Positions 9,332-48,734 are shown, counted from the first letter of the stretch. The stretch is DNA of 64,000 nucleotides from Bacteroidota bacterium (GCA_024640885.1 JAHEEC010000009.1:2773-66772), one strand, 5' to 3'. Numbers and translations: made by a program. Notes: generated by a model not told the origin, from the sequence alone.

Positions 9332-10837
9332 ATGTATAAAATAGGAATACTCATATTCCTGGTAACCGCATTCGCATGCGGGCACAGCTCCGAAGAAGCG
9401 GACCTCCACCAGGATGACCTGCATTTGCACGGTGAAGAATCGTCCCGGGCCACGCTCTTTGCCGGAAATACAGAATTCTATGTTGAACATGCCCCGCTGG
9501 AAACCGGGGAAGAATCAGCGTTCCTGGTTCATTTGACAAACCTGAAATCCTACAAGCCTTACCTGTCTGGGACCGTCTCCATCCAGCTGGATGGGGTTAC
9601 TGCATCATCGGATCTCCCCGTCAGTCCGGGGATTTTTGAGATTCCCTTTGTGCCGGCCAGGGGCGGTGAATTTGAGATTTCCTATACATTCACTTCGGAG
9701 GGCTCCGCCACAACAGTATCGGATCATGTCCTGGTCCTGCAGGAGCAACCCGGGTCGCCGGAGCAAGCAGGCGATTCACATGCCGGCCTCAACGAAGTTG
9801 AGCCAGGTGAGATCACATTCACCAAGGAGCAGGCATGGAAAAGCCCCTTCATGGTGGAACGCATTGAACCTGTTCCATTCTACGCGGTCCTCCCTACCAG
9901 TGGAGAGATCCTTGCCGTGCCAGGAGAGAAAAAAAGTGTGGCTGCCAGTGGCCGGGGCATCGTTCACTTTTTAAACACAGATCTGGTGCAGGGCTCGCCG
10001 GTAACCAGGGGTCAGGTACTCTTCACACTCCAGAGTGAAACAATGATCGAAAACAACGTGGAACTTCAATACCGGGAATCTCTGAACAACTATGAAAAGA
10101 GCCGGAGTGATTATGAGAGGCATGCCCTCCTCTTCGCACAGGGGGTCATTTCGGAGCGCCAGTTCATCGAGACCAGAGCCAGGTTCACTTCCGACAGCCT
10201 GCGCTTCTCAAGCCTGGCTGCCAACACATCGGGCAGTGGTCTGAATGTCTATGCTCCTGTTTCGGGGACCATCCATGAGCTTAATGTATCGGAGGGAGGC
10301 TATATTGAAACCGGGGAGCTCATGGTCACCATTTCTGCCAACCGGAAACTCCTGATCCGGGCCGATCTTTCCCAACAGTTCTACGGTCAGATCGGAATGA
10401 TAGAATCTGCCAATTTCCGGCCAGCATATACAGACAGGGTTTACTCCATAGAAGAGGTGAACGGCAGGTTGCTGGCCGCAGGGTCCTCCGTGGCAGAAAA
10501 CGATCACTATTTGCCGGTGATCTTTGAAGTTGAAAATGATGGAAGTTTGCTTGAAGGAGCCTTCACAGAGGTTTTCCTGAAGACATCCCCCAAACAAGAT
10601 GTGATCGTCTTACCCTATGAGGCGGTATCAGAAGAGCAGGGGGGACACTTTGTGTATGTCCAGGTGACCGGAGAGAGTTTCACAAAAAGGGCGGTGACCC
10701 CTGGCAATAGTGATGGCAGGCTGGTGGAGATCGCCCTGGGGCTGGAGCCGGGAGAAAGGGTGGTTACCCGCGGTGTGATGCTTCTCAAGGCATCCTCCAT
10801 GGTTACAACCGTGGCAGGTGATGGTCACAATCATTAA
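9332..10837 (+). CDS. Efflux RND periplasmic adaptor (MFP) lipoprotein with N-terminal extra domain
   Basis: 501 aa with lipobox LVTAFA|C. The N-terminal ~170 aa is a beta-rich extension. It is followed by a typical MFP hairpin/barrel region (VLPTSGEILAVPGEKKSVAASGRGIV..., ERQFIETRARF, VYAPVSGTIHELNVSEGGYIETGELMVTI, VLPYEAV, FVYVQ). Confidence 0.85.
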   Translation: MYKIGILIFLVTAFACGHSSEEADLHQDDLHLHGEESSRATLFAGNTEFYVEHAPLETGEESAFLVHLTNLKSYKPYLSGTVSIQLDGVTASSDLPVSPGIFEIPFVPARGGEFEISYTFTSEGSATTVSDHVLVLQEQPGSPEQAGDSHAGLNEVEPGEITFTKEQAWKSPFMVERIEPVPFYAVLPTSGEILAVPGEKKSVAASGRGIVHFLNTDLVQGSPVTRGQVLFTLQSETMIENNVELQYRESLNNYEKSRSDYERHALLFAQGVISERQFIETRARFTSDSLRFSSLAANTSGSGLNVYAPVSGTIHELNVSEGGYIETGELMVTISANRKLLIRADLSQQFYGQIGMIESANFRPAYTDRVYSIEEVNGRLLAAGSSVAENDHYLPVIFEVENDGSLLEGAFTEVFLKTSPKQDVIVLPYEAVSEEQGGHFVYVQVTGESFTKRAVTPGNSDGRLVEIALGLEPGERVVTRGVMLLKASSMVTTVAGDGHNH

Positions 10838-10848
10838 ATCCGGGAATC

Positions 10849-13800
10849 ATGCTCAACAGAATCATACAATATTCCCTGAATAACAGGATGCTGATCGTCT
10901 TTCTTTCCATCATGCTTCTTGCAGGCGGATTAATTACGGTTAGAGAAATGGAAATCGATGTATTTCCCGACCTCACCGCCCCCACGGTAGTGGTGCTTAC
11001 CGATGCCCATGGCATGGCGGCTGAGGAGGTGGAGACCCTGGTCACCTTTCCCATCGAGTCCTCACTCAACGGGGCCACCGATGTGAGGAGGGTTCGTTCA
11101 AGCTCATCCTATGGATTTTCCATTGTGTGGGTTGAATTCAAATGGAACACCGATATTTACAGGGCCAGGCAGATTGTGAGTGAAAAGCTTCCGACCATCG
11201 CTGCACTTCTTCCCAAGGAGATTGAAACACCCATCCTGGCTCCCCAGACCTCTGTCATGGGCGAGATCATGCTGGTCTCCCTCACCTCGGATTCGCTTAC
11301 CATGTTTGACCTGAGAACCATTGCAGACAAGCAGGTGAGGCAGCGCCTCCTGTCGGTCACCGGTGTTGCCCAGGTGGTGGTCATGGGGGGGTTGCCCAAA
11401 CAGTACCAGATCCTGGCTGATCCCCGGAAAATGAAATATCATGATGTATCCCTCAGGGAACTGACCGGTGCCGCAGAAAATACCAACAGCAATGCCTCGG
11501 GTGGATTTATAAACCAGCATGGCCAGGAATACATTGTCAGGGCCACCGGCCGTTCCAGGGATCCCCGGGAGATTGGAACATCCGTGATCAAGATCAGGAA
11601 TGAAAATCCTGTAAAGATCCTGGATGTGGCAGAGGTGAAGATCGGACATCCCGATAAGATCGGGGATGCCTTCCTCAACCGCTCGCCCGCTGTGATCATG
11701 ACCATTTTGAAACAACCCAATATCAATACCCTCGTATTGACCGAGGAGGTGGAGAAGGCCCTCGATGCCCTGGGCACCTCACTCCCTGAGGGGGTGGAGA
11801 TCAATTCCGGGATATTCAGGCAGGCCGATTTCATCAATACGGCAGTGAGCAACGTATTCCGGGTTCTTTTAGAAGGAGGTGTGTTTGTCACGATCATTCT
11901 GTTCCTTTTTCTCCTTAACGTAAGGACCACCCTGATCTCGCTTGTGGCCATCCCCCTCTCACTATTGCTTTCCATTATCACCCTGAGGTTGCTGGGACTC
12001 ACAATCAACACCATGTCCCTGGGTGGCATGGCCATTGCCATTGGAGCCCTGGTGGATGATGCGATCATCGATGTGGAGAATGTATTGAAACGGCTGAAAC
12101 AGAATTACAGAAAGCCGAAAGAGGATCAGGAGGGTACCCTGCAGGTAATTTACAAAGCCTCGGTGGAAATCAGGTCATCCATTGTCCAGGCCACGCTGAT
12201 CATCATCGTGGCCTTCATCCCCCTTTTCTTCCTGGCAGGAATGGAAGGCCGCATGCTGAAACCACTGGGGATCACTTTTATTGTTTCCCTGATAGCCTCC
12301 CTGCTGGTGGCGCTCACCCTGACCCCGGTTCTTTCCAGCTATATGCTTACCACCCCGAAACAACTTTCCCGGGATGAAAGGGGGGGCAATATTTTCGTCC
12401 AGAAACTGAATACCTGGTATGGGAAAGCCCTGGGTACATTCCTGAAATTCAGGCATATGGTAATTATCACATCCTCCGGGTTGCTGGTGCTTGCCATCTT
12501 CATGTTCTTCAGATTCGGGAGCTCTTTTTTACCTGAATTCAACGAGGGTACACTCACCATCACAGCCATTACCCTGCCTGGGATATCGCTGGAGGAGAGC
12601 AACCGGATCATGGACCGGATCGATGCTGAACTCCTGGAGATCGCTGAGATAAAATATGTGAGCCGACGTACCGGCAGGGCCGAACTGAATGAACACAGCC
12701 ACGGAGGATCAAATTCTTCAGAGATCGATGCACCTTACCTGCTCTCCGAAAGGAATTACGAAGTGTTTATGGATGAAGTGAGGGACAGGCTCACAGGAAT
12801 TCCCGGTATCAACCTGAATATCGGTCAGCCACTTGGTCACCGAATCGACCATATGCTGTCCGGTACAAGGGCCAGCATTGCCATTAAACTTTTCGGAAAA
12901 GACCTTGGGACCATGTACAGGGTGGCAAACGAAGTGAAAGAGACCATTTCCGGAATCCCCGGATTGGTAGACCTGAATGTGGAGCAGCTGGTTGAGATTC
13001 CGCAGCTTCAGATAAGGCCCAGGAGGGAAATGCTGGCCAGATATGGGATCCCTCAAAATGATCTGACGCGTTTCGTGGAAACCGCCATCGCAGGGGAAAA
13101 GGTGGCTGAAGTATACGACGACAACCTGAACTTTGACCTTATTGTCAGGTACGACGAGCGGTTTCGCAACAGCATGGAATCCATTGAAAATAGCCTTATG
13201 GATACACATGAGGGGTATAAGGTCCCCCTGATGTATGTGGCCGACGTGGTCTCCACCAGCGGTCCGAACACCATTAACCGTGAGAATGTGCAGCGTAAAC
13301 TGGTGATCTCTGCCAATACAGCCGGCCGCGACCTGGGAAGTGTGGTTTCTGAAATTCGTGAGGCCATTGGCAATGGGGTCTCTCTCCCCAATGGATACAG
13401 GATCGAATACGGTGGCCAGTTCGAAAGTGCAAAAAATGCCACTACGACCCTGCTCATCACTTCGCTTCTCGCCATTCTTGTGATTTTTGTGATCCTGTTC
13501 CAGGAATTCAGGAGCGGAAAGCTGGCTGGGGTCATCCTGCTAAACCTTCCGTTGGCTTTAATCGGTGGTGTGGTGGCCATCAAACTGACATCCGGGGTCA
13601 TCAGCATCCCTTCGATCATCGGGTTTATCACACTTTTTGGGATAGCCACCAGGAATGGGATTCTCCTGGTATCCAGGTACAGCCATCTGCGCAGTGAGGG
13701 ATGGGGATTGCGGGAAACCATTCTCCAGGGATCGGTGGACAGGCTCAATCCGATCCTGATGACCGCACTGGCCTCAGCGCTGGCGCTGATCCCCCTGGCC

Positions 13801-13935
13801 ATGGGAGGAGATAAGCCGGGGAACGAGATACAGAGCCCCATGGCTGTAGTCATCCTCGGGGGTCTGGTCACCTCCACCCTTCTTAACCTGATCGTCATCC
13901 CTTCCGTCTATTATATACTTGAAAAGAGAAAATGA
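10849..13935 (+). CDS. CusA/CzcA-family heavy-metal efflux RND transporter (system 1)
   Basis: 1028 aa with canonical HME-RND organisation (12 TM segments and two large periplasmic loops). The TM4 signature AIGALVDDAIIDVEN (about 12021-12082) resembles the E. coli CusA type AVGAMVDAAIVMIEN rather than the Czc-type DFG..DGA..VEN. Confidence 0.95.
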   Translation: MLNRIIQYSLNNRMLIVFLSIMLLAGGLITVREMEIDVFPDLTAPTVVVLTDAHGMAAEEVETLVTFPIESSLNGATDVRRVRSSSSYGFSIVWVEFKWNTDIYRARQIVSEKLPTIAALLPKEIETPILAPQTSVMGEIMLVSLTSDSLTMFDLRTIADKQVRQRLLSVTGVAQVVVMGGLPKQYQILADPRKMKYHDVSLRELTGAAENTNSNASGGFINQHGQEYIVRATGRSRDPREIGTSVIKIRNENPVKILDVAEVKIGHPDKIGDAFLNRSPAVIMTILKQPNINTLVLTEEVEKALDALGTSLPEGVEINSGIFRQADFINTAVSNVFRVLLEGGVFVTIILFLFLLNVRTTLISLVAIPLSLLLSIITLRLLGLTINTMSLGGMAIAIGALVDDAIIDVENVLKRLKQNYRKPKEDQEGTLQVIYKASVEIRSSIVQATLIIIVAFIPLFFLAGMEGRMLKPLGITFIVSLIASLLVALTLTPVLSSYMLTTPKQLSRDERGGNIFVQKLNTWYGKALGTFLKFRHMVIITSSGLLVLAIFMFFRFGSSFLPEFNEGTLTITAITLPGISLEESNRIMDRIDAELLEIAEIKYVSRRTGRAELNEHSHGGSNSSEIDAPYLLSERNYEVFMDEVRDRLTGIPGINLNIGQPLGHRIDHMLSGTRASIAIKLFGKDLGTMYRVANEVKETISGIPGLVDLNVEQLVEIPQLQIRPRREMLARYGIPQNDLTRFVETAIAGEKVAEVYDDNLNFDLIVRYDERFRNSMESIENSLMDTHEGYKVPLMYVADVVSTSGPNTINRENVQRKLVISANTAGRDLGSVVSEIREAIGNGVSLPNGYRIEYGGQFESAKNATTTLLITSLLAILVIFVILFQEFRSGKLAGVILLNLPLALIGGVVAIKLTSGVISIPSIIGFITLFGIATRNGILLVSRYSHLRSEGWGLRETILQGSVDRLNPILMTALASALALIPLAMGGDKPGNEIQSPMAVVILGGLVTSTLLNLIVIPSVYYILEKRK

Positions 13936-15116
13936 TGAATGCACGAAATATAGTTTCCCTGTTCTTTGGCTTCGGCACATTCATATGCGCTGCCGGACAG
14001 CTCCCGGCCCCCGATACTTTGTTCAGCAAAGTGCTGGAGAATAACAAATCCCTTAGGGTTGCCAGGGAAGCATACCAGGTAAGTATACTGGAAGCGGGAA
14101 CCGGCAATACGCCTGCGGATCCCCTAGTGGAAATCGGTTACCTCTATGGCAAGCCTTCCGACTTGGGGAACCGGTTGGATATACGGGTGAACCAGCAGGT
14201 GGATTTTCCCACCACCTACATCCACAGATCCAATGTCAGGAAGATAAGGAACACCAAGGCGGAGCTTGAGTATGCCATTGCCCGGCAGGAGATTTTGCTT
14301 CGGGCCAAACAGCTGTGGATTGAACGGATCCATCTGAACCAGCAGGAGAAGATGCTCCTGACAAGGCTCCAGCAGGCAGAGATCATTCACGAGCACTTCA
14401 AGAAAAAGCTTGCTGCAGGAGAGGTGGACCTCCTGACCTTCAACCAGTCGACCCTCCAGCTGGCTGCCACCGAAAGTGAGTATGACCGGGTGCTTTCAGA
14501 GGTAAGAGGCAACCAGCTGGCCCTGGATGAGATCTCAGGAGGCTCAGGGGTGGAAATCGGGGATACCCTGTTTCCCGCCCCGGTCACGATTATCCCTGAT
14601 TCCCTGCTCCGGGATTACATGCAGGAGCCCGCATTACAACTGCATACCCGTGAACTTCAATTGAAAGAGGAGCAAAAAAGCCTGACGGTCAGCCAGCACC
14701 TGCCAAAAATTTCAGCCGGGTACTATTCCGAATCTGTCCTGGACCAGCAGTTCAAAGGTTTTCAGGTGGGCATTACCGTGCCCCTCTGGGAAAATGCCAA
14801 CCGCATTAAAATGGCGAAATCAGAAGTGGCCTTTGCCGAAGCAGACGCCAACCGGTATACCTACCTGCAGGGGAAGGAAATCAGGAAAAAGCTGGATCAG
14901 CTGGAGAGCTTGAAATCCAGGGCCCTGAAACTGGAAGAAGCGCTCGGGGAAGGGAACAGTGCCGGTTTACTGGCTCTGGCACTAAGGGGCGGAGAGATCT
15001 CCCTGACAGAGTATTTCTATGCCTCCGATCTCTATTTTCGGAACGAACAGCTGCTGCTTGATTACAAAAGGGACCAGTTGCTGATGGAAGCGGAGTTGTT
15101 GAAGCTCTATCTTTAG
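13932..15116 (+). CDS. TolC-family outer membrane efflux protein
   Basis: 394 aa. It overlaps the RND stop by 4 nt (ATGA). It has a signal peptide and two OEP-like coiled repeats (SLRVAREAYQVSILEAGTG...; EVAFAEADANRYTY...). Confidence 0.85.
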   Translation: MMNARNIVSLFFGFGTFICAAGQLPAPDTLFSKVLENNKSLRVAREAYQVSILEAGTGNTPADPLVEIGYLYGKPSDLGNRLDIRVNQQVDFPTTYIHRSNVRKIRNTKAELEYAIARQEILLRAKQLWIERIHLNQQEKMLLTRLQQAEIIHEHFKKKLAAGEVDLLTFNQSTLQLAATESEYDRVLSEVRGNQLALDEISGGSGVEIGDTLFPAPVTIIPDSLLRDYMQEPALQLHTRELQLKEEQKSLTVSQHLPKISAGYYSESVLDQQFKGFQVGITVPLWENANRIKMAKSEVAFAEADANRYTYLQGKEIRKKLDQLESLKSRALKLEEALGEGNSAGLLALALRGGEISLTEYFYASDLYFRNEQLLLDYKRDQLLMEAELLKLYL

Positions 15117-21303: not shown

Positions 21304-22473
21304 TTAATCATTAGTTTCTTCTACCCATAAATTGTATGCTCCTTCAGTCAAAATCCCCGATAAATCCTGATCCAAAATTTCCACGTACCCATCCTGGGTA
21401 ATTCCGGTATGAACCTGTACTTTTCTAAAACTTAATTGATCGGCAGTCTCTTCTGACAGGACCATCACATAATCCTGATCCCGCTGCCTGACCAGGGCCT
21501 GTTCGGGGATGGCCAGCGCCTCGTGCCGGTGGGTAATGATCCGCGCCTCCACATATAGATTGTTGACCAATCCTTCAGAGTTTCCGATCTGTGCCAGGCA
21601 GGCGATGGTCCGGGTATCGGGATCGATGGAACCTCCCAGGTGGCTGATGGTGGCCTCATACTCCCTTTCCGGATGATCCGGAACATAGAAGCGAACAGGC
21701 TGTCCCTCCATGATATCTGCCAGGTCGTGTTCAAATACCTGGAGTTTAAGCTGAAGGTTTTTCGTATCCACCAATTCCAACAGGGTCTCCTGCGTTTCCA
21801 CTGCCTGTCCCAGCACCAGATCCTGCCTGGTGATCACACCCCGGATGGGGGCCCTAACCGATATATGGGGGGTGATCGATCCCTGTTCAATCATCGAAGG
21901 ATCAATTTGAAGCATGCGCAAACGGGCCTTAAGTCCCTCCACCCTTGCTTGCATGCTCCTGAAATCACTCTCTGTTTTAAGAAAATCCTTCCTGGCCACA
22001 ATGGCATCCTGGGAGAGGGCTTTCAGCCGCTCATAATCTGCGGCCAGCAGGTTCAACTGATTGAATGCCTCCGCGTACTCCTGCTGTATGAGGATGATCT
22101 CATTCCCTTCCAGTGAGAACAGTACCTCCCCCCTGTTCACCAGCTCCCCGGGATTGTGGTTGATTTTCATTATCCTTCCCGGTACCAGCGAAGAGATCTT
22201 TGCGCTTCCTGAAATGGTGGAAACCACATTTCCGTTGGCGTTGACCTCGAGGCTGAAAATCCGGGATCCGGGATCCCCCACTTTCATCCCCGATGATTCA
22301 AACTGGGTCCTGGTGAGCTTCAGGATTCCTGCCTGATCCAACAGCAGGGTTTCTCCCTGTACACCGGCTCCCTGGTTCTCACCGGCTCCCTTGTTGCAGG
22401 ATGCCACCCCAATCAGGGCCGGAATTGAAAAGAGAAGCAGGTGATATCTGATACGGATTGCATGCATGGTCAT
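21304..22473 (-). CDS. Efflux RND periplasmic adaptor (MFP) lipoprotein (system 2)
   Basis: 389 aa with lipobox GVAS|C. MFP blocks are present (VSTISGSAKISSLVPGRIMKINHNPGELVNRGEVLFSLEG, coiled hairpin, VRAPIRGVITRQDLVLGQAV, ALAIPEQALV, YVMVL). It starts 5 nt after the RND-OMF ORF. Confidence 0.85.
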   Translation of the reverse strand: MTMHAIRIRYHLLLFSIPALIGVASCNKGAGENQGAGVQGETLLLDQAGILKLTRTQFESSGMKVGDPGSRIFSLEVNANGNVVSTISGSAKISSLVPGRIMKINHNPGELVNRGEVLFSLEGNEIILIQQEYAEAFNQLNLLAADYERLKALSQDAIVARKDFLKTESDFRSMQARVEGLKARLRMLQIDPSMIEQGSITPHISVRAPIRGVITRQDLVLGQAVETQETLLELVDTKNLQLKLQVFEHDLADIMEGQPVRFYVPDHPEREYEATISHLGGSIDPDTRTIACLAQIGNSEGLVNNLYVEARIITHRHEALAIPEQALVRQRDQDYVMVLSEETADQLSFRKVQVHTGITQDGYVEILDQDLSGILTEGAYNLWVEETND

Positions 22474-22478
22474 TGTGG

Positions 22479-25400
22479 TTATTCAAGTGTCATGAAATTG
22501 ATCTCAAGGGCTAATTCATTGTAGAGATAAAGATTCTCCAGGTAGTTCAACTCAATCTCCACTGCACTGTCAATGCTCTGGACCAACCTGAAAAAATCGA
22601 TCTCCCCGGCAGCGTAGCTTTGTTGCGCGGATCGGATCAGTTCCGAGGAAAGCTCCCTCCCGGTCTGTTCATAGAATTGAATGACCTCCCGGTGTTTCAT
22701 CATCCCGGAGGTTAATTCGGCAACCCGGCTTTCATACTTCCGGATATAATTTGTTTGCATACTGGCGTTGGCCTCCAATGCCAGTTGTTTGGCTTTTACC
22801 CTGGCTCTTTGCTCTCCAAAAAATAGGGGAACGCCCAGGCCAACTTCGAAGCCCTGGTAGTGCCTGGCGCCCTCATACCGGTTGGTCCCGTTGAAATACT
22901 GGAGCGTTACATCGGGTAACAATATGTTCTTCTCCACCTTCATTTCCGCATCCTGCTTCAGGGCACTGTTCTGCAGATAATGAAATCCCGGGTCGGAGGT
23001 TACACCACCCGGATTCAATGCGATCTCATGAAGCGGCTCCCCAGGCAATACGAAGAGGCTGTCGTATTGCATGAGCGTGGCCAGGTTTGCATAGGCTATA
23101 TCAATGTCGTGTTGCAGCTGCATCTGGCTGAGCATGATCCGGTCATGTTTCGAACGTGCAATGAGCATCTCCAGGTAGGTGGTTTCTCCCTGGTCAAAGC
23201 TTGCCTCTGCTGCTGAGGTAAAACGCATGTAAATGCTATCCACCATGTTGTATGCCCGTTGCCTGTTCTGAAGATAGATGGCATTATAATATCTTTTGGC
23301 CACATCCCGGGTCATCTGCCTTTTCTTTTGCTCCAGTTCGTCCAGGGCCATGGAATAGGCCATGGAATAGGCATTTTTCTGGGCAAAATAGAGGGTGGGA
23401 AAATCAAACCGTTGCTCCCCTCCAATCACCCCGATGGGGTAATCGTTAGCTGCCACATTGTTTTCATCGTAGTTGTAGCGAATGATTGTTTTATCGATGG
23501 CAAAAGCTGTTTTGATCAGGGCCTTGCTCTCTTCAGCCTTCAGCCGGTAGGCCTCCAGTTCACTGTTATTGCTGTAGGTGAGTTCCAGTGCTTCCTGCAG
23601 GGATATTTCACGCGGGGTATTCCCGGCCACTGTACCAGGTTGTGCATTGGCCAGTGCCGGAAGGCAAAGAATCATGCCAAGGATCATCCAGAGTTTCATG
23701 GGTATTTCTTTGGCCCTTTTCAACTTTGGGGGCCACAGTTGTATGCCCATCACATCATCCACCAGGGCATAGAGCAGGGGCAGGGCAAGCATGGTCAGCA
23801 GGCTGGAAGTGACCAGGCCCCCGATCACCACCGTGGCCAGGGGGCGCTGCACCTCGGCCCCGGCCGAGGTGGAGATGGCCATGGGCAGAAATCCCATGGC
23901 CGCTGCCGATGCGGTCAGTAACACGGGACGCAGGCGTTCACGGGTTCCTTTCAGGATCCGCTCCTTCATATCGGTGATGCCCTGCTCTTTCAGGTCATTC
24001 AGGTGCTCGATCAGGACGATCCCGTTCAGTACGGCGATCCCAAAGAGGGCAATGAAGCCAATACCTGCAGAAATACTGAATGGCATGCCCCTGATCCACA
24101 GAAGGAAAACACCACCCACGATGGAAAGGGGGACAGCGGTAAATACCAGGATGGCCTCCTTGAAAGAACTGAAGGCAAAGTGGAGAAAAATAAAGATGAG
24201 CAACAAGGCGATTGGAACAGCCACCTTCAATCTTCTTGAAGCATTTTTCAGGTTTTCGAACTGCCCGCCGTAATCGATGTAATATCCTGCAGGGAGCTCC
24301 AGTTTCTCACTCAGGATGGGTTCGATATCCGCCACAACCGATTGAAGGTCCCGGTTTCGGACGTTGACGCTGACCACCACCCTCCTGCGCGTATTATCCC
24401 TGGATATTTTTGCCGGGCCCGAAGAGTATTCGATGGTCGCCAGTTCCTCCAGGGGGATCTGTCCTCCATGGGGCAGCGATACCGGAAGGTTCCTGATATG
24501 TTCAATATCGACCCGGTATTCAGGGAGCAACCGCACCACAAGGTCAAATCTCCTCTCCCCTTCAAAAATACTTCCTGCAATAGCGCCCCCGAAAGCCATG
24601 GTTACATATCTGTTCAGCTCCTCAATGGATTGGCCATAATAGGCCACTTTGTTGCGCCTGTACTTCACACTCATCTGTGGCAGACCTGCCGTTTTCTCCA
24701 AAATGATATCGGCCGCCCCGGGTACCCCGGTGATCAGTTGCTTGACCTCCTGTGCTTTCGCGGCAAGGATCTCAAGGTCGTCCCCGAAGATCTTGATGGC
24801 CAGGTCGGCCCTCACACCGGTGATCAGTTCATTAAACCGCATTTCGATGGGCTGGGTGAACTCATAATCGATTCCGGGAATGACAGTCAATGCCTCCTTG
24901 AAACGATTGGCCAGTTCCTCCTTGCTGCCGGCAGATACCCATTCTTCCCTGGGGATCAGCTTGATAATCATATCGATCTCCTCCATGGACATGGGATCGG
25001 TGGGCACTTCTGCAGCCCCGATCCTGCACACGATCTGGTCCACCTCCGGAAACTTTTCCATCAGAATGTTCTCCATCCGGGTGGTCAGTTCCACGGTTTT
25101 TGAAAGTGAAGTACCCGTTTTCAATACCGGCTGGATCACAAAATCACCTTCATCCAGGGTAGGCACAAATTCACCTCCCATCCTTGAGAAAATGATCCCT
25201 GTGAGGACCAGGGAAGCCAATGCCATGCCGAATATGACCCCCTTGTGGTCATAGGACCACCGGATGACAGGATCGTAGGACCGGTAAAAGAGCCTCATAA
25301 GATAACGGGTGAGGAAAAATTGTTTCTCCTTTCCGGGTTTCAGGAATACAGAAGAAGCCACAGGAAGCCAGGTGAGGCCAAAAAACATGGCCCCAAGCAG

Positions 25401-26864
25401 TGCAAATGAAAATGAGAGGGCCATGGGCCTGAACATCTTTCCTTCAACCCCGCTCAGCGAAAGCACAGGAATAAAGACGATCAGGATGATCAATTGTCCG
25501 AAGATGGCCGAATTGATCATTTTTGACGCCCCGTCAAAGGTGATCCTGTCCATCAGGCTCTGTTTTTCATCCCCCTGCCGGATCTCAATATTGGCCCGGT
25601 TCATGGTCAGTTTCACAGCAATATACTCCACGATGATCACCGCCCCGTCAATAATGATCCCGAAGTCAAGCGCACCAAGGCTCATAAGGTTAGCGTCAAT
25701 GCCAAAAATGTACATCATGGAAATGGTGAAAAGAAGGGAGAGTGGAATCAGGGAGGCGATGACCAGTCCCGAGCGAAGGTTGCCCAGCAACAGCACCACG
25801 ATCACAAATACGATCAGACAACCAAAGAGGAGGTTCTCAAAAACGGTCCTGGAGGTTTTGGAGATAAGTTCACTCCGTTCAAGGATCGGGTTGATAAAAA
25901 CCCCTTCCGGAAGGGTATTCTGTACTTCAGCCACACGGGCCTTCACCGCTTCGATCACATCGTTGGAATTGGCACCCTTCAGCATCATGATCTGACCCAG
26001 CACCTTTTCCCCTTCGCCATTCGCCGTAATGGCTCCAAAGCGATTGGCACTGCCAAAGCGCACCGTGGCCAGATCCTTCACCAGGACCGGGACCTCCCCG
26101 GTATTGGCAACCACCACATTTTCCAGGTCCTCGATGGAAGTGACAAGCCCGTCACCCCTTATGAAATAACTCTGGTTCTGTTTCTCAATGTAGGCCCCCC
26201 CAGTCACACTGTTGTTATTCTGTACCGCATTAAACACTTCCAGGAGGTTGATTCCCATTCCTTTTATCTTCTCGGGGTTGATGGCCACCTCGTATTGTTT
26301 TAAATAACCTCCCCAGGTATTTACCTCCACCACCCCCGGGATACCGGAAAGCTGACGCTTTACCACCCAGTCCTGCATGGTGCGGAGCTCCATGATTGAA
26401 TATTTTCCCTCATATCCGGGTTTGGTATCCAGGATATACTGGTAGATCTCCCCAAGCCCGGTGGTGATCGGCCCCATTTCCGGGGTTCCAAAACCTTCAG
26501 GAATATTGGCGGTTGCGGTTTTGATCTTTTCGGCGATCAACTGCCGTGGGAGATAGGATCCCAGCTTATCTTCGAACACAATGGTCACCACGGAAAGACC
26601 GAATTTGGAGATGGACCGTATTTCGGTGACACCCGGAAGATTGGACATTTCCAGCTCAACCGGGTAGGTAATGAACTGCTCCACATCCTGGGTGGACAGG
26701 CTGGTGGAAGTTGTGATCACCTGGACCTGGTTGTTGGTGATATCCGGAACGGCTCCCACGGGGATCTGGAATATGGAATAGACCCCAAATCCCGCAATGA
26801 AAAGGGTCAACAAAAGGACAATCAGCTTGTGATTAATGCTTAGATTAATGATCCGGTTCAGCAT
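22479..26864 (-). CDS. czcA: Czc-type HME-RND transporter fused in frame to a TolC-like outer membrane factor
   Basis: This is a single 1461-aa ORF. Residues 1 to about 1040 form a complete RND pump with TM4 signature DFGIIIDGAVIIVEY (25622-25680, Czc type). A basic linker WPPKLKRAKEIP follows. Residues 1056-1074, MKLWMILGMILCLPALANA|Q, form a signal-peptide-like segment (23643-23699). Residues 1075-1461 are a TolC/OEP-like protein (SLQEALELTYSNNSELEAYRLKAEESKALIKTAF...). There is no stop codon between the two parts. Confidence 0.85.
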   Translation of the reverse strand: MLNRIINLSINHKLIVLLLTLFIAGFGVYSIFQIPVGAVPDITNNQVQVITTSTSLSTQDVEQFITYPVELEMSNLPGVTEIRSISKFGLSVVTIVFEDKLGSYLPRQLIAEKIKTATANIPEGFGTPEMGPITTGLGEIYQYILDTKPGYEGKYSIMELRTMQDWVVKRQLSGIPGVVEVNTWGGYLKQYEVAINPEKIKGMGINLLEVFNAVQNNNSVTGGAYIEKQNQSYFIRGDGLVTSIEDLENVVVANTGEVPVLVKDLATVRFGSANRFGAITANGEGEKVLGQIMMLKGANSNDVIEAVKARVAEVQNTLPEGVFINPILERSELISKTSRTVFENLLFGCLIVFVIVVLLLGNLRSGLVIASLIPLSLLFTISMMYIFGIDANLMSLGALDFGIIIDGAVIIVEYIAVKLTMNRANIEIRQGDEKQSLMDRITFDGASKMINSAIFGQLIILIVFIPVLSLSGVEGKMFRPMALSFSFALLGAMFFGLTWLPVASSVFLKPGKEKQFFLTRYLMRLFYRSYDPVIRWSYDHKGVIFGMALASLVLTGIIFSRMGGEFVPTLDEGDFVIQPVLKTGTSLSKTVELTTRMENILMEKFPEVDQIVCRIGAAEVPTDPMSMEEIDMIIKLIPREEWVSAGSKEELANRFKEALTVIPGIDYEFTQPIEMRFNELITGVRADLAIKIFGDDLEILAAKAQEVKQLITGVPGAADIILEKTAGLPQMSVKYRRNKVAYYGQSIEELNRYVTMAFGGAIAGSIFEGERRFDLVVRLLPEYRVDIEHIRNLPVSLPHGGQIPLEELATIEYSSGPAKISRDNTRRRVVVSVNVRNRDLQSVVADIEPILSEKLELPAGYYIDYGGQFENLKNASRRLKVAVPIALLLIFIFLHFAFSSFKEAILVFTAVPLSIVGGVFLLWIRGMPFSISAGIGFIALFGIAVLNGIVLIEHLNDLKEQGITDMKERILKGTRERLRPVLLTASAAAMGFLPMAISTSAGAEVQRPLATVVIGGLVTSSLLTMLALPLLYALVDDVMGIQLWPPKLKRAKEIPMKLWMILGMILCLPALANAQPGTVAGNTPREISLQEALELTYSNNSELEAYRLKAEESKALIKTAFAIDKTIIRYNYDENNVAANDYPIGVIGGEQRFDFPTLYFAQKNAYSMAYSMALDELEQKKRQMTRDVAKRYYNAIYLQNRQRAYNMVDSIYMRFTSAAEASFDQGETTYLEMLIARSKHDRIMLSQMQLQHDIDIAYANLATLMQYDSLFVLPGEPLHEIALNPGGVTSDPGFHYLQNSALKQDAEMKVEKNILLPDVTLQYFNGTNRYEGARHYQGFEVGLGVPLFFGEQRARVKAKQLALEANASMQTNYIRKYESRVAELTSGMMKHREVIQFYEQTGRELSSELIRSAQQSYAAGEIDFFRLVQSIDSAVEIELNYLENLYLYNELALEINFMTLE

Positions 26865-45675: not shown

Positions 45676-47493
45676 TTAAAACTCCAGGGTCTCCCTGGTC
45701 TCTCCGCACCCCAGCATGGCATCCCCGAAATATGGATTTTTAATCTCCTTGAACGTGCTCAGCCAGAAAGCCCCTGTATCGCCGTTGGCCATAGGACAAT
45801 ACTGGTAGTAAACCGTTCCACGGGATAATCCAAACACTTTGACTGTGTTGTAAAAAGTGCTGTTGAAAGCCGCGAACTCCCGCCTCTGGGATTCTATTTC
45901 CCCGGTACCGGCTATCCTATCAACGGATCCCTTTAATGATTCAACCTGCTTCATCCATTTCATGTGGGCCTCTCCTTTCAGCAGTCCCATATCCACCCTG
46001 TCCAGATTCTCTCCTAATTTTTTTGCAAGCCTGCCAACCTCGCCGGCATCCGATAAGACAAAAGCATCTTTCATCGGGATATAGGCGTCATAGACCCGTT
46101 GCAACTGGGCCTTAAACTCGTCATTCACCCTGGTTGGATCCTTCTGGGCATCGCCGGCGGGCTCCATGGCCATCGAGCCATGGTCATGCCCGGTAGAAAC
46201 GCGCCCACCCTGGGGATTCATCATGCTTGTCTTTCCTTCCAGCTGTGCGGAGGCGTCAATCTTAAAGACTCCGTTCACAGCAATCTCTTCACCCGAAGTG
46301 AGTCCCTCTGCCACCACATAGAAATCACCGGCCTCCGGTCCCAGGGTGATCTCCCGGTAAAGAAATGTAGGTGAACTCCTGCCGGGGACCTTCACATAGA
46401 CCACCGCACGTTTACCTGTCCAGAGGATGGAGGATTTGGGGATCAACAACTGGTTTGCTCCGGCAGCCATCCTTGAGTGCAGCTTTCCCCTGGCAAACAT
46501 TTCCGGCTTCAGGAGGCCGCTTCCATTGGGCAGTTCGATCCTCACCCCTGCTACCCGTGTGCCGGGATCGATATACGGATCAATATATGTGACCCTCCCT
46601 TCATAGGATTTGCCCGGCAGGGACTGGAATGTCAGCTCAATGAGATCCCCTTTGCTGATCCATGGAAGGTCGCTTTCATAGGCATCGAAAACCACCCATA
46701 CACCTGAGAGGTCTGTTACCTGGAAAAGGGATGATCCTTCCTGCACATAGTCACCCTGGGCCACATGCCTCTCCATGATGGTCCCTGTGATGGGGGAGTG
46801 AATATCGAAATAGAGCATGGGTTCACCCCCCTGCTCGATGGATTCGATCTGCTCATCGGAGAGGTCCCACAGTTTGAGTTTGGTCCTGGCCGCCTTGTAA
46901 AGCGACGGCCTTGTCTCCCTGAGCACCATTGCTTCAATAAGCTCCTGCTGGGCCGAGACCAGGTCAGGTGAATAGATGGTTGCCAGTTTTTCCCCTTTGT
47001 TTACCTGCTGCCCCGTAAAGTTCACGAACAGTTTTTCGATCCGGCCCCCGAACCTGGCAGTGATCTCTGCCATATTCCGCTCATCGGCCTGAACCTTTCC
47101 CTGCAGGGATACAACCCTTTGGGGTGCTCCCGGGCCGACGATCATGGTCTGGATCTCTGCCAGTTTCGCAGCCGACTCGCTCATCATAATTTCATTGGGG
47201 TCCGCCCCTGAACTGGAAGACTCCAGGGAGGTGACCGGTATAAGGTCCATGGCACAAATTGGACACTTGCCCGGTTTATCCTGCCTGATCTGGGGATGCA
47301 TGGAACAGGTCCATACGGAGGGTGTTTCCGATGGATGGTCATGCCCATCCACCACCTCCGCCTGGTTGATCTGGGCTTTCTCCTCCTTTGAAGGATGGAA
47401 GAACAACCATCCCAGGAACAATCCCGTGACCAGGACCACAAGCATTGACCTGTAATTCTCTTTGATGCTTTGAATTGTGTTTTTCATGATCAT
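45676..47493 (-). CDS. cusB: CusB-like RND adaptor with N-terminal heavy-metal-binding domain and C-terminal DUF3347-like domain
   Basis: 605 aa.
- The N-terminus has WTCSMHPQIRQDKPGKCPICAMDL, the Cys4 HMBD motif seen on Bacteroidetes/other CusB and P-type ATPases.
- The central part has MFP blocks (VQADERNMAEITARFGGRIEKLFVNFTGQQVNKGEKLATIYSPDLV, IHSPITGTIMERHVAQGDYV, LLIPKSSIL, VVYVK).
- The C-terminal ~140 aa (LQRVYDAYIPMKDAFVLSD...YYQYCPMANGDTGAFWLS) resembles DUF3347. Confidence 0.85.
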   Translation of the reverse strand: MIMKNTIQSIKENYRSMLVVLVTGLFLGWLFFHPSKEEKAQINQAEVVDGHDHPSETPSVWTCSMHPQIRQDKPGKCPICAMDLIPVTSLESSSSGADPNEIMMSESAAKLAEIQTMIVGPGAPQRVVSLQGKVQADERNMAEITARFGGRIEKLFVNFTGQQVNKGEKLATIYSPDLVSAQQELIEAMVLRETRPSLYKAARTKLKLWDLSDEQIESIEQGGEPMLYFDIHSPITGTIMERHVAQGDYVQEGSSLFQVTDLSGVWVVFDAYESDLPWISKGDLIELTFQSLPGKSYEGRVTYIDPYIDPGTRVAGVRIELPNGSGLLKPEMFARGKLHSRMAAGANQLLIPKSSILWTGKRAVVYVKVPGRSSPTFLYREITLGPEAGDFYVVAEGLTSGEEIAVNGVFKIDASAQLEGKTSMMNPQGGRVSTGHDHGSMAMEPAGDAQKDPTRVNDEFKAQLQRVYDAYIPMKDAFVLSDAGEVGRLAKKLGENLDRVDMGLLKGEAHMKWMKQVESLKGSVDRIAGTGEIESQRREFAAFNSTFYNTVKVFGLSRGTVYYQYCPMANGDTGAFWLSTFKEIKNPYFGDAMLGCGETRETLEF

Positions 47494-48734
47494 TTTCCCA
47501 TTAAATAGTTGATAAAAGAGATGGCGGCCTGCTTGTCGGTCCTGGCCTTTTCCAGTTCGACCCCGTATTCAAGCCACATCCTCTCCATCCTGAGGATCTC
47601 TTCAAAATTCGTACTCCCGGTGGTATACTCTGTCTCAAGCAGGGTCAGGGACCTGGATGCCAGTTCTCGTTGTGATTCGAACAGAACGATCCTTCGCCCG
47701 GCATCACGGTATTCCTTCCATGCCCTTTCCTGGATGGTCTCCAGCATGTTTATTTTCTCTGATTTCTCCGCTTCCCTTGCTTCCTGTAGATAGACCACCT
47801 CGTTGACCATGGCCCGGTACTTGTTCCTGTAAAGGGGAATGGAAATGCCAACCATGGGGAACATGATGGCATCGGTGCCTGCCATTTGATCGGGCCCCTT
47901 TCCGATGACTGTGTATTCTATCCCCAGCATAAACGCCGGTTTTCCCTCCTTTTGAACAAGCTCTTTTCTGAAAGCCAGGGCCTCCTGCTCCAGGGAAAGG
48001 GCAAGCAAACCGTGGTTCCTGGCCTGGATTGAGTCCTGCACCTGCTCCATGGACCACAGAAGATCGTCCTCCCACAATACGCCGGGAGTCACGATTGGCT
48101 GGCCACGCTCTGCGTTCAGCAGGTTATTGAACATCACTTCCAGCAAATGCTCCTGGTCCACCAGCAGTGCCAGTTGATTCTCCATCTCCCCGATCTCCAT
48201 CTGGATGCGGTATTCATCCAGCACCGAGACCTTGCCTGCTTCAATCTTGATCCGCGCCAGGTTATGGAATACACCGAGCAGCCTAAGATTATCCCTGGCC
48301 AGATCCATGGCCCTCCTGCTAAAATAGAGGTCATAATAGGTGGATCTCACCTGGTTGAACAGCTCTGATCTCTTTTCCAGGAATACTTCATACTTCGATT
48401 TGGCATTCTGACTGGCTTCATCCTCCCTGGCCTGCAAAGTGCCAAACCACGGGAACATCTGGGAAGCCTCCAGTTTAAAGCGCTGGGGGCCCATCCTGGT
48501 CTCCATGGGAGTGATGAAATAGGAAAATGCCAGCTGCGGGTCGGGAAGTGCCCTGACCTGGGGTGCCATTTCCAGCGCGGCCATGTACTCGTTGAAGGCA
48601 CTCCTCAACCCGGGATTGTGCTCTGCTGCGGTCACAAGGTATCGCTCCAGATCCTCCTGGGCCGTTAGTACAGTGGAGATCAGCAATGCACCCAATGACA
48701 TTATATAGATGATTCTCTTCATGATCTTATGCAT
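47490..48734 (-). CDS. TolC-family outer membrane efflux protein (system 3)
   Basis: 414 aa with a signal peptide and OEP-type repeats (DLERYLVTAAEHNPGLRSAFNEYMAALE...). It overlaps cusA-like by 8 nt and cusB-like by 4 nt. Confidence 0.85.
   Translation of the reverse strand: MHKIMKRIIYIMSLGALLISTVLTAQEDLERYLVTAAEHNPGLRSAFNEYMAALEMAPQVRALPDPQLAFSYFITPMETRMGPQRFKLEASQMFPWFGTLQAREDEASQNAKSKYEVFLEKRSELFNQVRSTYYDLYFSRRAMDLARDNLRLLGVFHNLARIKIEAGKVSVLDEYRIQMEIGEMENQLALLVDQEHLLEVMFNNLLNAERGQPIVTPGVLWEDDLLWSMEQVQDSIQARNHGLLALSLEQEALAFRKELVQKEGKPAFMLGIEYTVIGKGPDQMAGTDAIMFPMVGISIPLYRNKYRAMVNEVVYLQEAREAEKSEKINMLETIQERAWKEYRDAGRRIVLFESQRELASRSLTLLETEYTTGSTNFEEILRMERMWLEYGVELEKARTDKQAAISFINYLMGK

What the first reader, a model, noticed from the sequence alone, without database searches (positions are those of the whole stretch)
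22479..26864. In-frame fusion of an inner-membrane Czc-type RND pump to a TolC-like outer-membrane factor
There is no stop codon between the RND part and the OMF part. The RND part ends ...LPLLYALVDDV. It is followed by a basic linker, GIQLWPPKLKRAKEIP. Next comes MKLWMILGMILCLPALANA|QPG (nt 23699-23643) and then a complete OEP-type protein.

The topology works on paper. The RND C-terminus and the basic linker would be cytoplasmic. The hydrophobic segment would act as TM13 running in-to-out. The A-N-A site would face the periplasm, where signal peptidase I could release the OMF.

Alternatively, the OMF is translated independently from Met1056. In system 3 of this same window the RND and OMF genes lie in the same order and overlap by 8 nt out of frame, which suggests an easy route to fusion.

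I recall that very long (~1450 aa) CzcA annotations exist in Bacteroidota, but I cannot verify that here. I am not aware of any work on the biogenesis of such a fusion.
Basis: partly seen in the sequence, partly recalled or inferred. Interest (0 to 1): 0.7.

Follow-up and report, generated by a model that had tools for sequence, protein, structure and literature searches.

The report
Metal pump and exit channel polyprotein
One 1461-codon gene encodes both an inner-membrane metal-efflux pump and its outer-membrane exit channel, joined by what looks like a buried, cleavable signal peptide; the arrangement is real, conserved in hundreds of Bacteroidota-group species, labelled in databases only as "CzcA", and I found no study of it.

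Summary
ORF 22479..26864(-) is an uninterrupted 1461-aa fusion. A complete CzcA/ZneA-type RND pump (aa 1-1035) is followed by a complete TolC-fold outer-membrane factor (aa 1075-1461). A lipoprotein adaptor gene lies directly downstream.

It is not an assembly artefact:
- At least 118 full-length homologues (64-79% identity) are fused.
- All 150 best 50%-identity cluster representatives span the junction.
- A DNA scan seeded with the OMF half alone found one reading frame across the junction in 75 of 77 informative species genomes (Bacteroidota, Ignavibacteriota).

The junction keeps the properties of a signal peptide rather than its sequence. It has a net-positive linker after TM12, about 16-17 uncharged residues usually containing Pro or Gly, small residues at -3/-1, and a nearly invariant Gln at +1. 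This fits the Bacteroidetes "Q-rule" for signal peptidase I substrates.

Met1056 lies in a 6-residue insertion found only in this sequence. 54 of 72 loci have no in-frame ATG there, so independent translation is not the family's mechanism.

Best reading (confidence about 0.8, inferred and not demonstrated): a polyprotein is split by signal peptidase I at A1074|Q1075 into a 118-kDa 13-helix pump and a 44-kDa channel. I found no paper on this. It is a new variant of a known kind.

The parts
22479..26864 (-). Whole fused ORF, 1461 aa (162.7 kDa), stop codon at 22479-22481
23760..26864 (-). HME-type RND pump core, aa 1-1035, with 12 hydrophobic peaks in the usual RND layout
   Evidence: Pfam ACR_tran 5-1035. 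TIGR00914 at 1140 bits. Closest solved structures are ZneA 4k0e (E 1e-192) and CusA 3k07 (E 7e-179). Hydropathy peaks.
25623..25667 (-). TM4 charge-relay motif DFGIIIDGAVIIVEY (aa 400-414), the DFG-DGA-VE pattern of divalent-cation (Czc/Zne-like) pumps
   Evidence: DFG-DGA-VE[FY] in 116 of 118 homologues. The meaning of the motif rests on my own knowledge (Nies 2003 classification), not on a test here.
23694..23768 (-). Predicted cytoplasmic linker after TM12 (aa 1033-1057, ALVDDVMGIQLWPPKLKRAKEIPMK). It contains the conserved GIQLWP[PL]+FKR-like motif and basic residues, and serves as the n-region of the internal signal peptide.
   Evidence: the stretch from the TM12 end to the last charged residue has mean net charge about +3 and is never negative. 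In the 50%-cluster representatives, net charge from the TM12 end to the cleavage site is positive in 141 of 142.
23643..23693 (-). Hydrophobic h-region plus c-region of the internal signal peptide, i.e. 'TM13' (aa 1058-1074, LWMILGMILCLPALANA)
   Evidence: 13th hydropathy peak at aa 1054-1072. Across homologues the uncharged span is usually 16-17 residues, with Pro or Gly at -7..-4 in 163 of 186.
23640..23645 (-). Predicted signal peptidase I site A1074|Q1075 (A-N-A|Q)
   Evidence: -1 is A, S or G in 111 of 118 and 175 of 186. Q at +1 was located in all 118 close homologues and in 142 of 145 diverse representatives. This matches the Q-rule (PMC5837995).
22482..23642 (-). Predicted mature outer-membrane factor, aa 1075-1461 (387 aa, 44.4 kDa), starting QPGTVAGNTPR...
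   Evidence: Pfam OEP in two stretches. AlphaFold2 pLDDT 86. Foldseek matches to TolC, CusC, SilC and OprM at probability 1.0. Masses.
21304..22473 (-). Periplasmic adaptor (MFP, CzcB-like), 389 aa, with a lipoprotein signal (…IGVASC). It starts 5 nt after the stop codon of the fusion gene.
   Evidence: Pfam HlyD_D23 and TIGR01730. Sequence. An MFP lies directly downstream in 72 of 75 related loci.

Best explanation
The gene encodes a polyprotein of a tripartite heavy-metal (probably divalent-cation) efflux system.

1. The ribosome makes one 1461-aa chain.
2. The 12-helix RND pump inserts into the inner membrane with its C-terminus in the cytoplasm.
3. A short basic linker follows, then a signal-peptide-like hydrophobic segment that inserts in-to-out as a 13th helix. 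This segment starts Sec-dependent translocation of the 387-aa C-terminal domain.
4. Signal peptidase I cuts after A-N-A1074.
5. This releases an OMF with N-terminal Gln1075, which is probably cyclised to pyroglutamate as in other Bacteroidetes SPase I substrates.
6. The OMF then travels to the outer membrane and trimerises into a TolC-like channel.
7. The pump keeps the linker and the signal peptide as a C-terminal 13th helix (118 kDa).
8. The lipoprotein adaptor encoded next door bridges the two.

The fusion would enforce 1:1 synthesis of two proteins that both work as trimers.

Shown here: the open frame, both complete domains, conservation of the fusion and of signal-peptide features, and the lack of a conserved internal start codon.

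Inferred: the topology, cleavage by SPase I, pyroglutamate formation, outer-membrane targeting, the metal substrate and the stoichiometry benefit.
For: (1) Continuous ORF with complete RND and OMF halves.

(2) The fusion is conserved and therefore selected:
- 118 full-length homologues of 1446-1497 aa at 64-79% identity, including the finished genome of Ignavibacterium album JCM 16511.
- All 150 best 50%-identity cluster representatives span the junction, down to 29% identity.
- A scan of GTDB species genomes seeded only with the OMF half found 356 relatives. Of the best 80 loci, 75 have a single-frame match across the junction, 3 are contigs truncated at the OMF, and 2 (L054, L072) carry frameshifts all along the gene. 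No locus shows an otherwise intact gene with a stop in the linker.

(3) The junction conserves properties, not sequence. It has a net-positive linker and an uncharged span of usually 16-17 residues, which is too short for a stable TM helix but typical of h+c regions. Pro or Gly sits at -7..-4 in 163 of 186. The -1 residue is A, S or G in 175 of 186. The -3 residue is small or aliphatic. Q is at +1.

(4) Q at +1 is the Bacteroidetes SPase I signature (PMC5837995, PMC10653852). I. album itself has a Q-value of 77%. The two stand-alone OMFs in this window have N-terminal signal peptides ending AAG|Q and LTA|Q. A rare stand-alone relative, P0253, carries the same kind of peptide at its N-terminus (…HGASA|QQ).

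(5) No conserved internal start codon exists.

(6) Only 3-20 residues separate Q(+1) from the first conserved OMF helix (LSLxEAlxxAxxNN). By my knowledge of AcrAB-TolC and CusC geometry, that is too short to keep an outer-membrane-inserted channel tethered to the inner membrane.

(7) The split layout exists in the same window. System 3 reads …PVLYSLWQEGRIRREMKQINA* and overlaps MHKIMKRIIYIMSLGALLISTVLTA|Q by 8 nt, with gene order RND-OMF-MFP. A single frameshift would reproduce the fused layout.
Against: - No protein-level data of any kind. Cleavage, localisation and function are inferred.
- No trained predictor (SignalP, DeepTMHMM) was available, so the site rests on rule-based features and conservation.
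- In this particular sequence a lineage-specific insertion creates M1056 in an A-rich context. Some internal initiation in this organism cannot be excluded.
- Part of the homologue evidence comes from gene calls. These are biased towards intact ORFs, although the DNA-level scan addresses that.
- The only bacterial precedent I know for SPase I splitting a polytopic membrane polyprotein is the B. japonicum FbcH cytochrome b/c1 precursor. I recall it from memory and could not check it here.
Confidence: 0.8

Rival explanations
1. The two proteins are made separately. The OMF is translated independently from an internal start (Met1056 here), and the open frame across the junction is tolerated but irrelevant.
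For: This sequence has an ATG at aa 1056 followed by K and a hydrophobic stretch, so it looks like a normal N-terminal signal peptide. The upstream codons are A-rich. Neighbouring systems in the window use overlapping stop and start codons.
Against: Met1056 lies in a 6-aa insertion unique to this sequence. The closest homologues, at 79% identity, lack it. Only 22 of 118 homologues have any Met at -30..-13, at scattered positions. At the DNA level 54 of 72 loci have no in-frame ATG there and 21 of 72 have no ATG, GTG or TTG. If the frame were irrelevant, stops and frameshifts should accumulate in the linker. Instead, 75 of 77 informative loci keep one frame.
Confidence: 0.05
2. The fusion is not cleaved. 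The hydrophobic segment is a permanent 13th TM anchor, and the OMF-like domain stays covalently attached to the pump, either as a periplasmic cap or somehow spanning to the outer membrane.
For: Nothing here measures cleavage. RND-superfamily fusions that stay intact do exist, for example SecDF in Thermus (PMC8277102). RND and OMF are both trimers, so a covalent 1:1 complex is conceivable.
Against: Conserved small residues at -1/-3 and Gln at +1 would have no reason to persist in an uncleaved anchor. The uncharged span is shorter than a normal TM helix and is usually broken by Pro or Gly. Only 3-20 residues separate the site from the first OMF helix. That is far too few to reach from the inner membrane to where an OMF N-terminus sits in assembled pumps (my knowledge of TolC, CusC and AcrAB-TolC structures). 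The OMF half keeps all four beta-strands of an outer-membrane barrel protomer.
Confidence: 0.08
3. Sequencing or assembly artefact, or a recent pseudogene-like accident: a missed stop or frameshift has joined two ordinary genes.
For: Adjacent RND and OMF genes that overlap by 4-8 nt occur in this same window. A single indel error could therefore fuse them.
Against: The same fusion, with homologous junction architecture, occurs in hundreds of independent assemblies and a finished genome from two phyla.
Confidence: 0.01

Closest known systems
CzcCBA / ZneCAB heavy-metal RND efflux systems of Cupriavidus metallidurans (ZneA structure 4K0E)
   Same: The RND half is a full-length HME pump. TIGR00914 scores 1140 bits, ZneA is the best solved match at E 1e-192, and the TM4 DFG-DGA-VE motif is present. 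It is partnered with a CzcB-like adaptor and a TolC-fold OMF.
   Different: There the three components are separate genes (order C-B-A) and the OMF has its own N-terminal signal. Here RND and OMF form one ORF (order A::C-B) and the signal peptide is internal. The substrate was not tested.
CusCFBA of E. coli (CusA 3K07, CusC 3PIK)
   Same: CusA is the second-best solved match (E 7e-179). CusC and SilC are among the best structural matches for the OMF half.
   Different: CusA has the A-x-G…D…E TM4 variant typical of Cu/Ag pumps, and system 1 of this window looks like that type. The fused pump has the divalent-type DFG-DGA-VE motif. CusC is a lipoprotein, whereas the fused OMF has no conserved Cys or lipobox. 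Labels such as 'putative silver efflux pump' on homologues are therefore doubtful.
Bradyrhizobium japonicum FbcH cytochrome b/c1 polyprotein (from my own memory: Thony-Meyer et al., PNAS 1991; not checkable here)
   Same: A polytopic inner-membrane protein is followed in one ORF by an internal signal peptide and a periplasm-exposed partner. The two are separated by signal peptidase, giving two subunits of one complex in 1:1 ratio.
   Different: There both products stay at the inner membrane. Here the released product would be an outer-membrane beta-barrel/alpha-barrel channel that must still cross the periplasm and be assembled in the outer membrane.
Bacteroidetes 'Q-rule' SPase I substrates (PMC5837995, PMC10653852)
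   Same: n-h-c organisation, small residues at -3/-1, and Gln at +1 that becomes pyroglutamate. The stand-alone OMFs of this window follow it too.
   Different: The Q-rule was described for N-terminal signal peptides. Here the signal lies about 1040-1075 residues into the chain, after 12 TM helices.
Uncleaved RND-superfamily fusions such as SecDF of Thermus thermophilus (PMC8277102)
   Same: Gene fusion joins partners of one membrane machine.
   Different: Those fuse two inner-membrane halves that remain one chain. No cleavage signal is present and only one membrane is involved.

Membership tests
HME-RND pumps (CusA/CzcA family, TIGR00914 / PF00873) | Full-length match to the family model above the curated cut-off | tested here: met
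   TIGR00914 at 1140.2 bits against a cut-off of 701.45, aa 1-1035. PF00873 at 916.7 bits, profile positions 1-1020 of 1021.
HME-RND pumps (CusA/CzcA family, TIGR00914 / PF00873) | 12 TM helices with two large periplasmic loops (after TM1 and TM7) | tested here: met
   Kyte-Doolittle peaks fall at 14-32, 345-419 (three TM helices), 452-507 (two), 542-560, 881-952 (three), 981-999 and 1012-1035. The hydrophilic stretches are aa 33-344 and 561-880. The alignment to ZneA and CusA runs end to end.
HME-RND pumps (CusA/CzcA family, TIGR00914 / PF00873) | TM4 acidic proton-relay motif (DFG-DGA-VEN in divalent-cation pumps) | tested here: met
   DFGIIIDGAVIIVEY at aa 400-414. DFG-DGA-VE[FY] in 116 of 118 homologues. 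The last residue is Y or F rather than N. The meaning of the motif is from my own knowledge.
HME-RND pumps (CusA/CzcA family, TIGR00914 / PF00873) | Proton-driven export of metal cations | not testable with these tools
   Needs genetics or transport assays.
Outer membrane factors (TolC/OEP, PF02321) | Two OEP repeats | tested here: met
   PF02321 at 73.6 bits (cut-off 22), two stretches. The sequence is very divergent: no PDB chain is found by sequence or profile search.
Outer membrane factors (TolC/OEP, PF02321) | TolC protomer fold: 4 beta-strands plus long coiled helices in a twofold repeat | tested here: met
   AlphaFold2 pLDDT 86.2. Elements: H15-25, H27-44, E53-59, E70-79, H82-150, H156-191, H218-239, E244-253, E262-270, H276-344, H350-382. 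Foldseek matches TolC, CusC, SilC, OprM and VceC at probability 1.00, TM 0.65-0.73.
Outer membrane factors (TolC/OEP, PF02321) | Own N-terminal Sec signal peptide (SPase I or lipoprotein type) | tested here: not met
   The signal-like segment is internal (aa ~1040-1074), after 12 TM helices. It is functionally equivalent on paper, but its position differs from every described OMF that I know of.
Outer membrane factors (TolC/OEP, PF02321) | Trimeric channel located in the outer membrane | not testable with these tools
   Needs fractionation or structure determination.
Signal peptidase I substrates following the Bacteroidetes Q-rule | Positively charged n-region, short hydrophobic h-region, polar c-region | tested here: met
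   The stretch from the TM12 end to the last charged residue has mean net charge about +3. The uncharged span is usually 16-17 aa, with Pro or Gly at -7..-4 in 163 of 186. Net charge from the TM12 end to the cleavage site is positive in 141 of 142 diverse representatives.
Signal peptidase I substrates following the Bacteroidetes Q-rule | Small residues at -1 and -3, Gln at +1 | tested here: met
   A-N-A|Q in the window. -1 is A, S or G in 175 of 186. -3 is A, S, G, V, L, I or T in 181 of 186. Q(+1) was located in 118 of 118 and in 142 of 145.
Signal peptidase I substrates following the Bacteroidetes Q-rule | Actual cleavage and pyroglutamate N-terminus | not testable with these tools
   No proteomic data. 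The supplements of PMC5837995 hold no entry for such proteins.
Tripartite RND efflux operon | Adaptor (MFP) gene adjacent to the pump and channel genes | tested here: met
   The MFP at 21304..22473 starts 5 nt after the stop codon. An MFP lies directly downstream on the same strand in 72 of 75 loci.

The most novel reading that the evidence does not exclude
This may be a natural bacterial polyprotein that spans two membranes in its fate. An outer-membrane channel would be born as the C-terminal domain of a 12-helix inner-membrane transporter and released by signal peptidase I at an internal Q-rule site. The spent signal peptide, together with the conserved GIQLWP[PL]+FKR linker, would stay on the pump as a functional 13th helix. 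Pump and channel would then be made in strict 1:1 ratio at the same translocon. As far as I could find, this mode of efflux-pump biogenesis has not been described or tested experimentally.
Probability: 0.45. Interest if true: 0.7.

Novelty: new variant of a known kind. Interest (0 to 1): 0.55.

Why it matters
1. Annotation. Hundreds of these proteins are named only 'CusA/CzcA family heavy metal efflux RND transporter' or 'silver efflux pump'. The channel gene is therefore invisible to resistome and metal-resistance surveys, and these operons look as if they lack an OMF.

2. Cell biology. The fusion offers a natural system for asking how Sec, signal peptidase I, periplasmic chaperones and the outer-membrane assembly machinery handle an outer-membrane protein that emerges after 12 TM helices. 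It also allows a test of whether co-synthesis helps a trans-envelope machine to assemble.

3. Evolution. The same window holds the unfused layout, with the same gene order and 4-8-nt overlaps. A single frameshift can convert an N-terminal signal peptide into an internal one. The result has been kept across two phyla.

4. Speculation. In Bacteroidota, which make little use of Shine-Dalgarno-based translational coupling, fusion may be a way to guarantee equimolar synthesis.

Tried and rejected
- **PDB by sequence.** Searches with the OMF half as a single sequence and as a 10-sequence profile gave no significant hit. The fold assignment needed AlphaFold2 plus Foldseek.
- **Literature.** The terms combined CzcA/CzcC/RND/OMF/TolC with fused, fusion, single polypeptide, internal signal peptide, polyprotein, and the Pfam domain names. 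None returned a paper on a natural RND-OMF fusion. Hits for 'fused' were reporter fusions, fused adaptors or SecDF. This is absence from the held open-access library, not proof that the fusion was never described.
- **FbcH precedent.** The paper is not held, so the precedent is cited from memory only.
- **Q-rule supplements.** The Q-rule paper's supplements contain no RND or CzcA entries.
- **Stand-alone relative P0253.** Its context is a 1.7-kb contig without DNA available. It shows only that the gene is not fused there.
- **Lipoprotein OMF.** Considered and rejected. There is no conserved Cys, and the local M-I-L-C does not fit a lipobox.
- **First junction parser.** On the diverse representatives it failed for about a third of the sequences. 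I replaced it with an alignment-anchored parser.
- **Loci scored 'STOP upstream'.** All six such loci have their stop or frameshift away from the junction, either inside the RND part or, in L072, inside the OMF part. L033 and L074 have a single disruption and L010 and L058 several. L054 and L072 are frameshifted throughout.

Full report
**Observation**

The window has one ORF at 22479..26864 on the minus strand. It is 1461 codons long with an ATG start. Reading the DNA and its translation shows no stop between the end of the RND part (…LPLLYALVDDV), the linker MGIQLWPPKLKRAKEIP, the segment M1056-KLWMILGMILCLPALANA-1074, Q1075-PGT… and the C-terminus.

- Pfam places ACR_tran on aa 5-1035 and OEP, in two stretches, on the C-terminal part.
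- NCBIfam TIGR00914 (CusA/CzcA) covers aa 1-1035 at 1140 bits against a cut-off of 701.
- Hydropathy gives the usual 12 RND peaks plus a 13th at aa 1054-1072, and none in the last 387 residues.

**Both halves are complete**

The RND half aligns end to end with ZneA (4k0e, E 1e-192) and CusA (3k07, E 7e-179). Its TM4 carries DFGIIIDGAVIIVEY. The DFG-DGA-VE pattern is present in 116 of 118 homologues. From my own knowledge of the HME classification, this pattern marks divalent-cation pumps rather than Cu/Ag pumps.

The C-terminal half is too divergent for sequence searches of the PDB. An AlphaFold2 model of aa 1075-1461 has pLDDT 86 and pTM 0.78. It shows the twofold OMF pattern of short helix, two strands, long helix and helix. 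Foldseek matches TolC, CusC, SilC, OprM and VceC at probability 1.00 and TM 0.65-0.73.

The next gene (21304..22473, minus) starts 5 nt after the stop codon. It encodes a CzcB-like adaptor with a lipoprotein signal, …IGVASC.

**Not an artefact**

A protein search returned at least 118 full-length clusters of 1446-1497 aa at 64-79% identity, with 100% coverage and both Pfam domains in nearly all of them. They come from Bacteroidales, Prolixibacteraceae and Lentimicrobiaceae, and include the finished genome of Ignavibacterium album JCM 16511. The sources name them merely 'CusA/CzcA family…', 'CzcA' or 'putative silver efflux pump'.

An exhaustive search of 50%-identity representatives with aa 851-1461 gave 150 best hits. 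All of them span the junction, down to 29% identity.

To avoid bias from gene callers, I scanned one genome per GTDB species using patterns from the OMF half only. This found 356 relatives. Among the best 80 loci:
- 59 have at least 900 codons open upstream in the OMF frame.
- 15 are open up to the contig end.
- 75 show a single-frame tblastn match across aa 1030-1085.
- 3 are contigs that begin in the OMF.
- 2 (L054, L072) are frameshifted all along the gene.

No locus has an otherwise intact gene with a stop in the linker. The taxa include Marinilabiliaceae, Cyclobacteriaceae, Flavobacteriales, Sphingobacteriia, Melioribacter (Ignavibacteriota) and a Chlorobiota MAG. The adaptor gene follows directly in 72 of 75 loci.

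**What the junction conserves**

In close homologues a motif TGIQLWP[PL][KR]FKR follows TM12. In distant homologues it disappears, but the physicochemical pattern stays:
- The linker is net positive. Its mean net charge is about +3, and it is positive in 141 of 142 diverse representatives.
- An uncharged span follows, usually of 16-17 residues, with Pro or Gly at -7..-4 in 163 of 186.
- The -1 residue is A, S or G in 175 of 186.
- The -3 residue is small or aliphatic.
- Gln is at +1. I located it in all 118 close homologues and in 142 of 145 representatives, and two of the three misses are parser failures.
- Only 3-20 poorly conserved residues follow before the conserved first OMF helix, LSLxEAlxxAxxNN.

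Conservation of properties rather than sequence is how signal peptides behave. Gln at +1 is the 'Q-rule' of Bacteroidetes signal peptidase I substrates (PMC5837995, PMC10653852). That paper gives I. album a Q-value of 77%.

The two stand-alone OMFs in this window have N-terminal signal peptides ending …CAAG|Q and …VLTA|Q. A rare stand-alone relative, P0253, begins MCRKNYSLLMIVAACFFVFHGASA|QQ.

**Internal initiation**

Met1056 lies in a six-residue insertion (MKLWMI) that only this sequence has. Homologues at 79% identity go straight from the basic cluster into LLLLLIP…. Only 22 of 118 homologues have any Met at -30..-13, and at no fixed position. In the DNA of 72 fused loci, 54 have no in-frame ATG there and 21 have no ATG, GTG or TTG.

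Independent translation therefore cannot be how the family makes its OMF. In this one organism it could add a minor second route.

**Mechanism**

The best-supported reading is a polyprotein.
1. The 12-helix pump inserts with its C-terminus in the cytoplasm, as in all solved RND pumps.
2. The basic linker stays inside.
3. The hydrophobic segment inserts in-to-out and starts translocation of the 387-aa domain.
4. Signal peptidase I cuts at A1074|Q1075 (nt 23643|23642).
5. The products are a 118.3-kDa pump that keeps the signal peptide as a 13th helix, and a 44.4-kDa OMF. The OMF goes on to the outer membrane.

An uncleaved tether is unlikely for three reasons. The cleavage-site residues are conserved. 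The hydrophobic span is short and is usually interrupted by Pro or Gly. The 3-20-residue spacer also cannot reach from the inner membrane to where an OMF N-terminus lies in assembled pumps; this last point rests on my own knowledge of the structures.

None of the protein-level steps is demonstrated here.

**Origin**

This window holds two unfused systems.
- System 1 comprises an MFP at 9332..10837, a Cus-like RND at 10849..13935 and an OMF at 13932..15116. The RND has AIG-DDA-VEN in TM4 and is 32% identical to the fused pump. RND and OMF overlap by ATGA.
- System 3 comprises an RND at 48727..52533, an OMF at 47490..48734 and an MFP at 45676..47493. This is the same gene order as the fused operon, with an 8-nt overlap. 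The RND ends …PVLYSLWQEGRIRREMKQINA* and the OMF starts MHKIMKRIIYIMSLGALLISTVLTA|Q.

One frameshift there would produce exactly the fused layout: TM12, then a basic tail, then a signal peptide.

**Comparison and novelty**

The parts are ordinary: an HME-RND pump, an OMF and an MFP. The encoding is not. The OMF's signal peptide is internal, which no described OMF has to my knowledge.

The closest mechanistic precedent I know is the B. japonicum FbcH cytochrome b/c1 polyprotein, which is split by signal peptidase. I recall it from memory and the paper is not held. In that case both products stay at the inner membrane.

Ten literature searches found no paper on a natural RND-OMF fusion. A large review of tripartite pumps mentions only other kinds of fusion. 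The architecture is plainly present in public databases, so this window is one member of a large, unstudied class rather than a unique find.

I rate it a new variant of a known kind, with interest 0.55.

Noticed in passing
window 23721-23753 (-), aa 1038-1048; homologue alignments: A strongly conserved motif, TGIQLWP[PL][KR]FKR, follows TM12 in most fused homologues down to ~40% OMF identity. The most distant ones lose it. Signal-peptide function alone does not explain its conservation. It might be an interfacial element of the retained 13th-helix hairpin, or a Pro-Pro translational pause. Neither idea was tested.
   Followed up: partly
window 45676-52533 (-): System 3 has an unusually long RND protein (1268 aa, ACR_tran split into 3 stretches). 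It overlaps an OMF gene (414 aa) by 8 nt, and that gene in turn overlaps by 4 nt a 605-aa adaptor carrying a heavy-metal-binding domain (HMBD) and DUF3347. An OmpA-family gene and a two-component system (42892-43569, 41516-42892) lie downstream. The gene order matches the fused operon.
   Followed up: partly
window 9332-15116 (+): System 1 comprises a 501-aa adaptor, a 1028-aa RND with the Cus-like TM4 motif AIG-DDA-VEN, and a 394-aa OMF that starts in an ATGA stop/start overlap. With it, the 64-kb window carries three metal-type RND systems.
   Followed up: partly
homologues P0093 and others: Database names for the fused proteins describe only the pump half ('CusA/CzcA family…', 'multidrug transporter AcrB', 'Putative silver efflux pump'). 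The 'silver' label conflicts with the divalent-type TM4 motif.
   Followed up: partly
window 28013-31012 (+): A 999-aa GH10 xylanase-like protein has Ig-like CHU_C domains and a T9SS C-terminal sorting domain (Por_Secre_tail). This fits a Bacteroidota origin for the window.
   Followed up: no
window 33325-36174 (+): A 949-aa protein combines a TLC ATP/ADP-transporter-like membrane domain with HEAT repeats. I did not look further into this architecture.
   Followed up: no
window 19356-21271 (-): Directly downstream of the adaptor gene, on the same strand, lie an MscS-like channel gene (20393-21271) and a CorA-type Mg/Co transporter gene (19356-20420). They overlap each other by 28 nt and may belong to the same metal/ion-homeostasis cluster.
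   Followed up: no
loci L010, L054, L058, L072: Several 'MFD…' and other MAG assemblies show the fused gene broken by multiple frameshifts spread along its length. This looks like long-read indel error rather than biology, and it is a caution for automated counts of fused versus split genes.
   Followed up: partly
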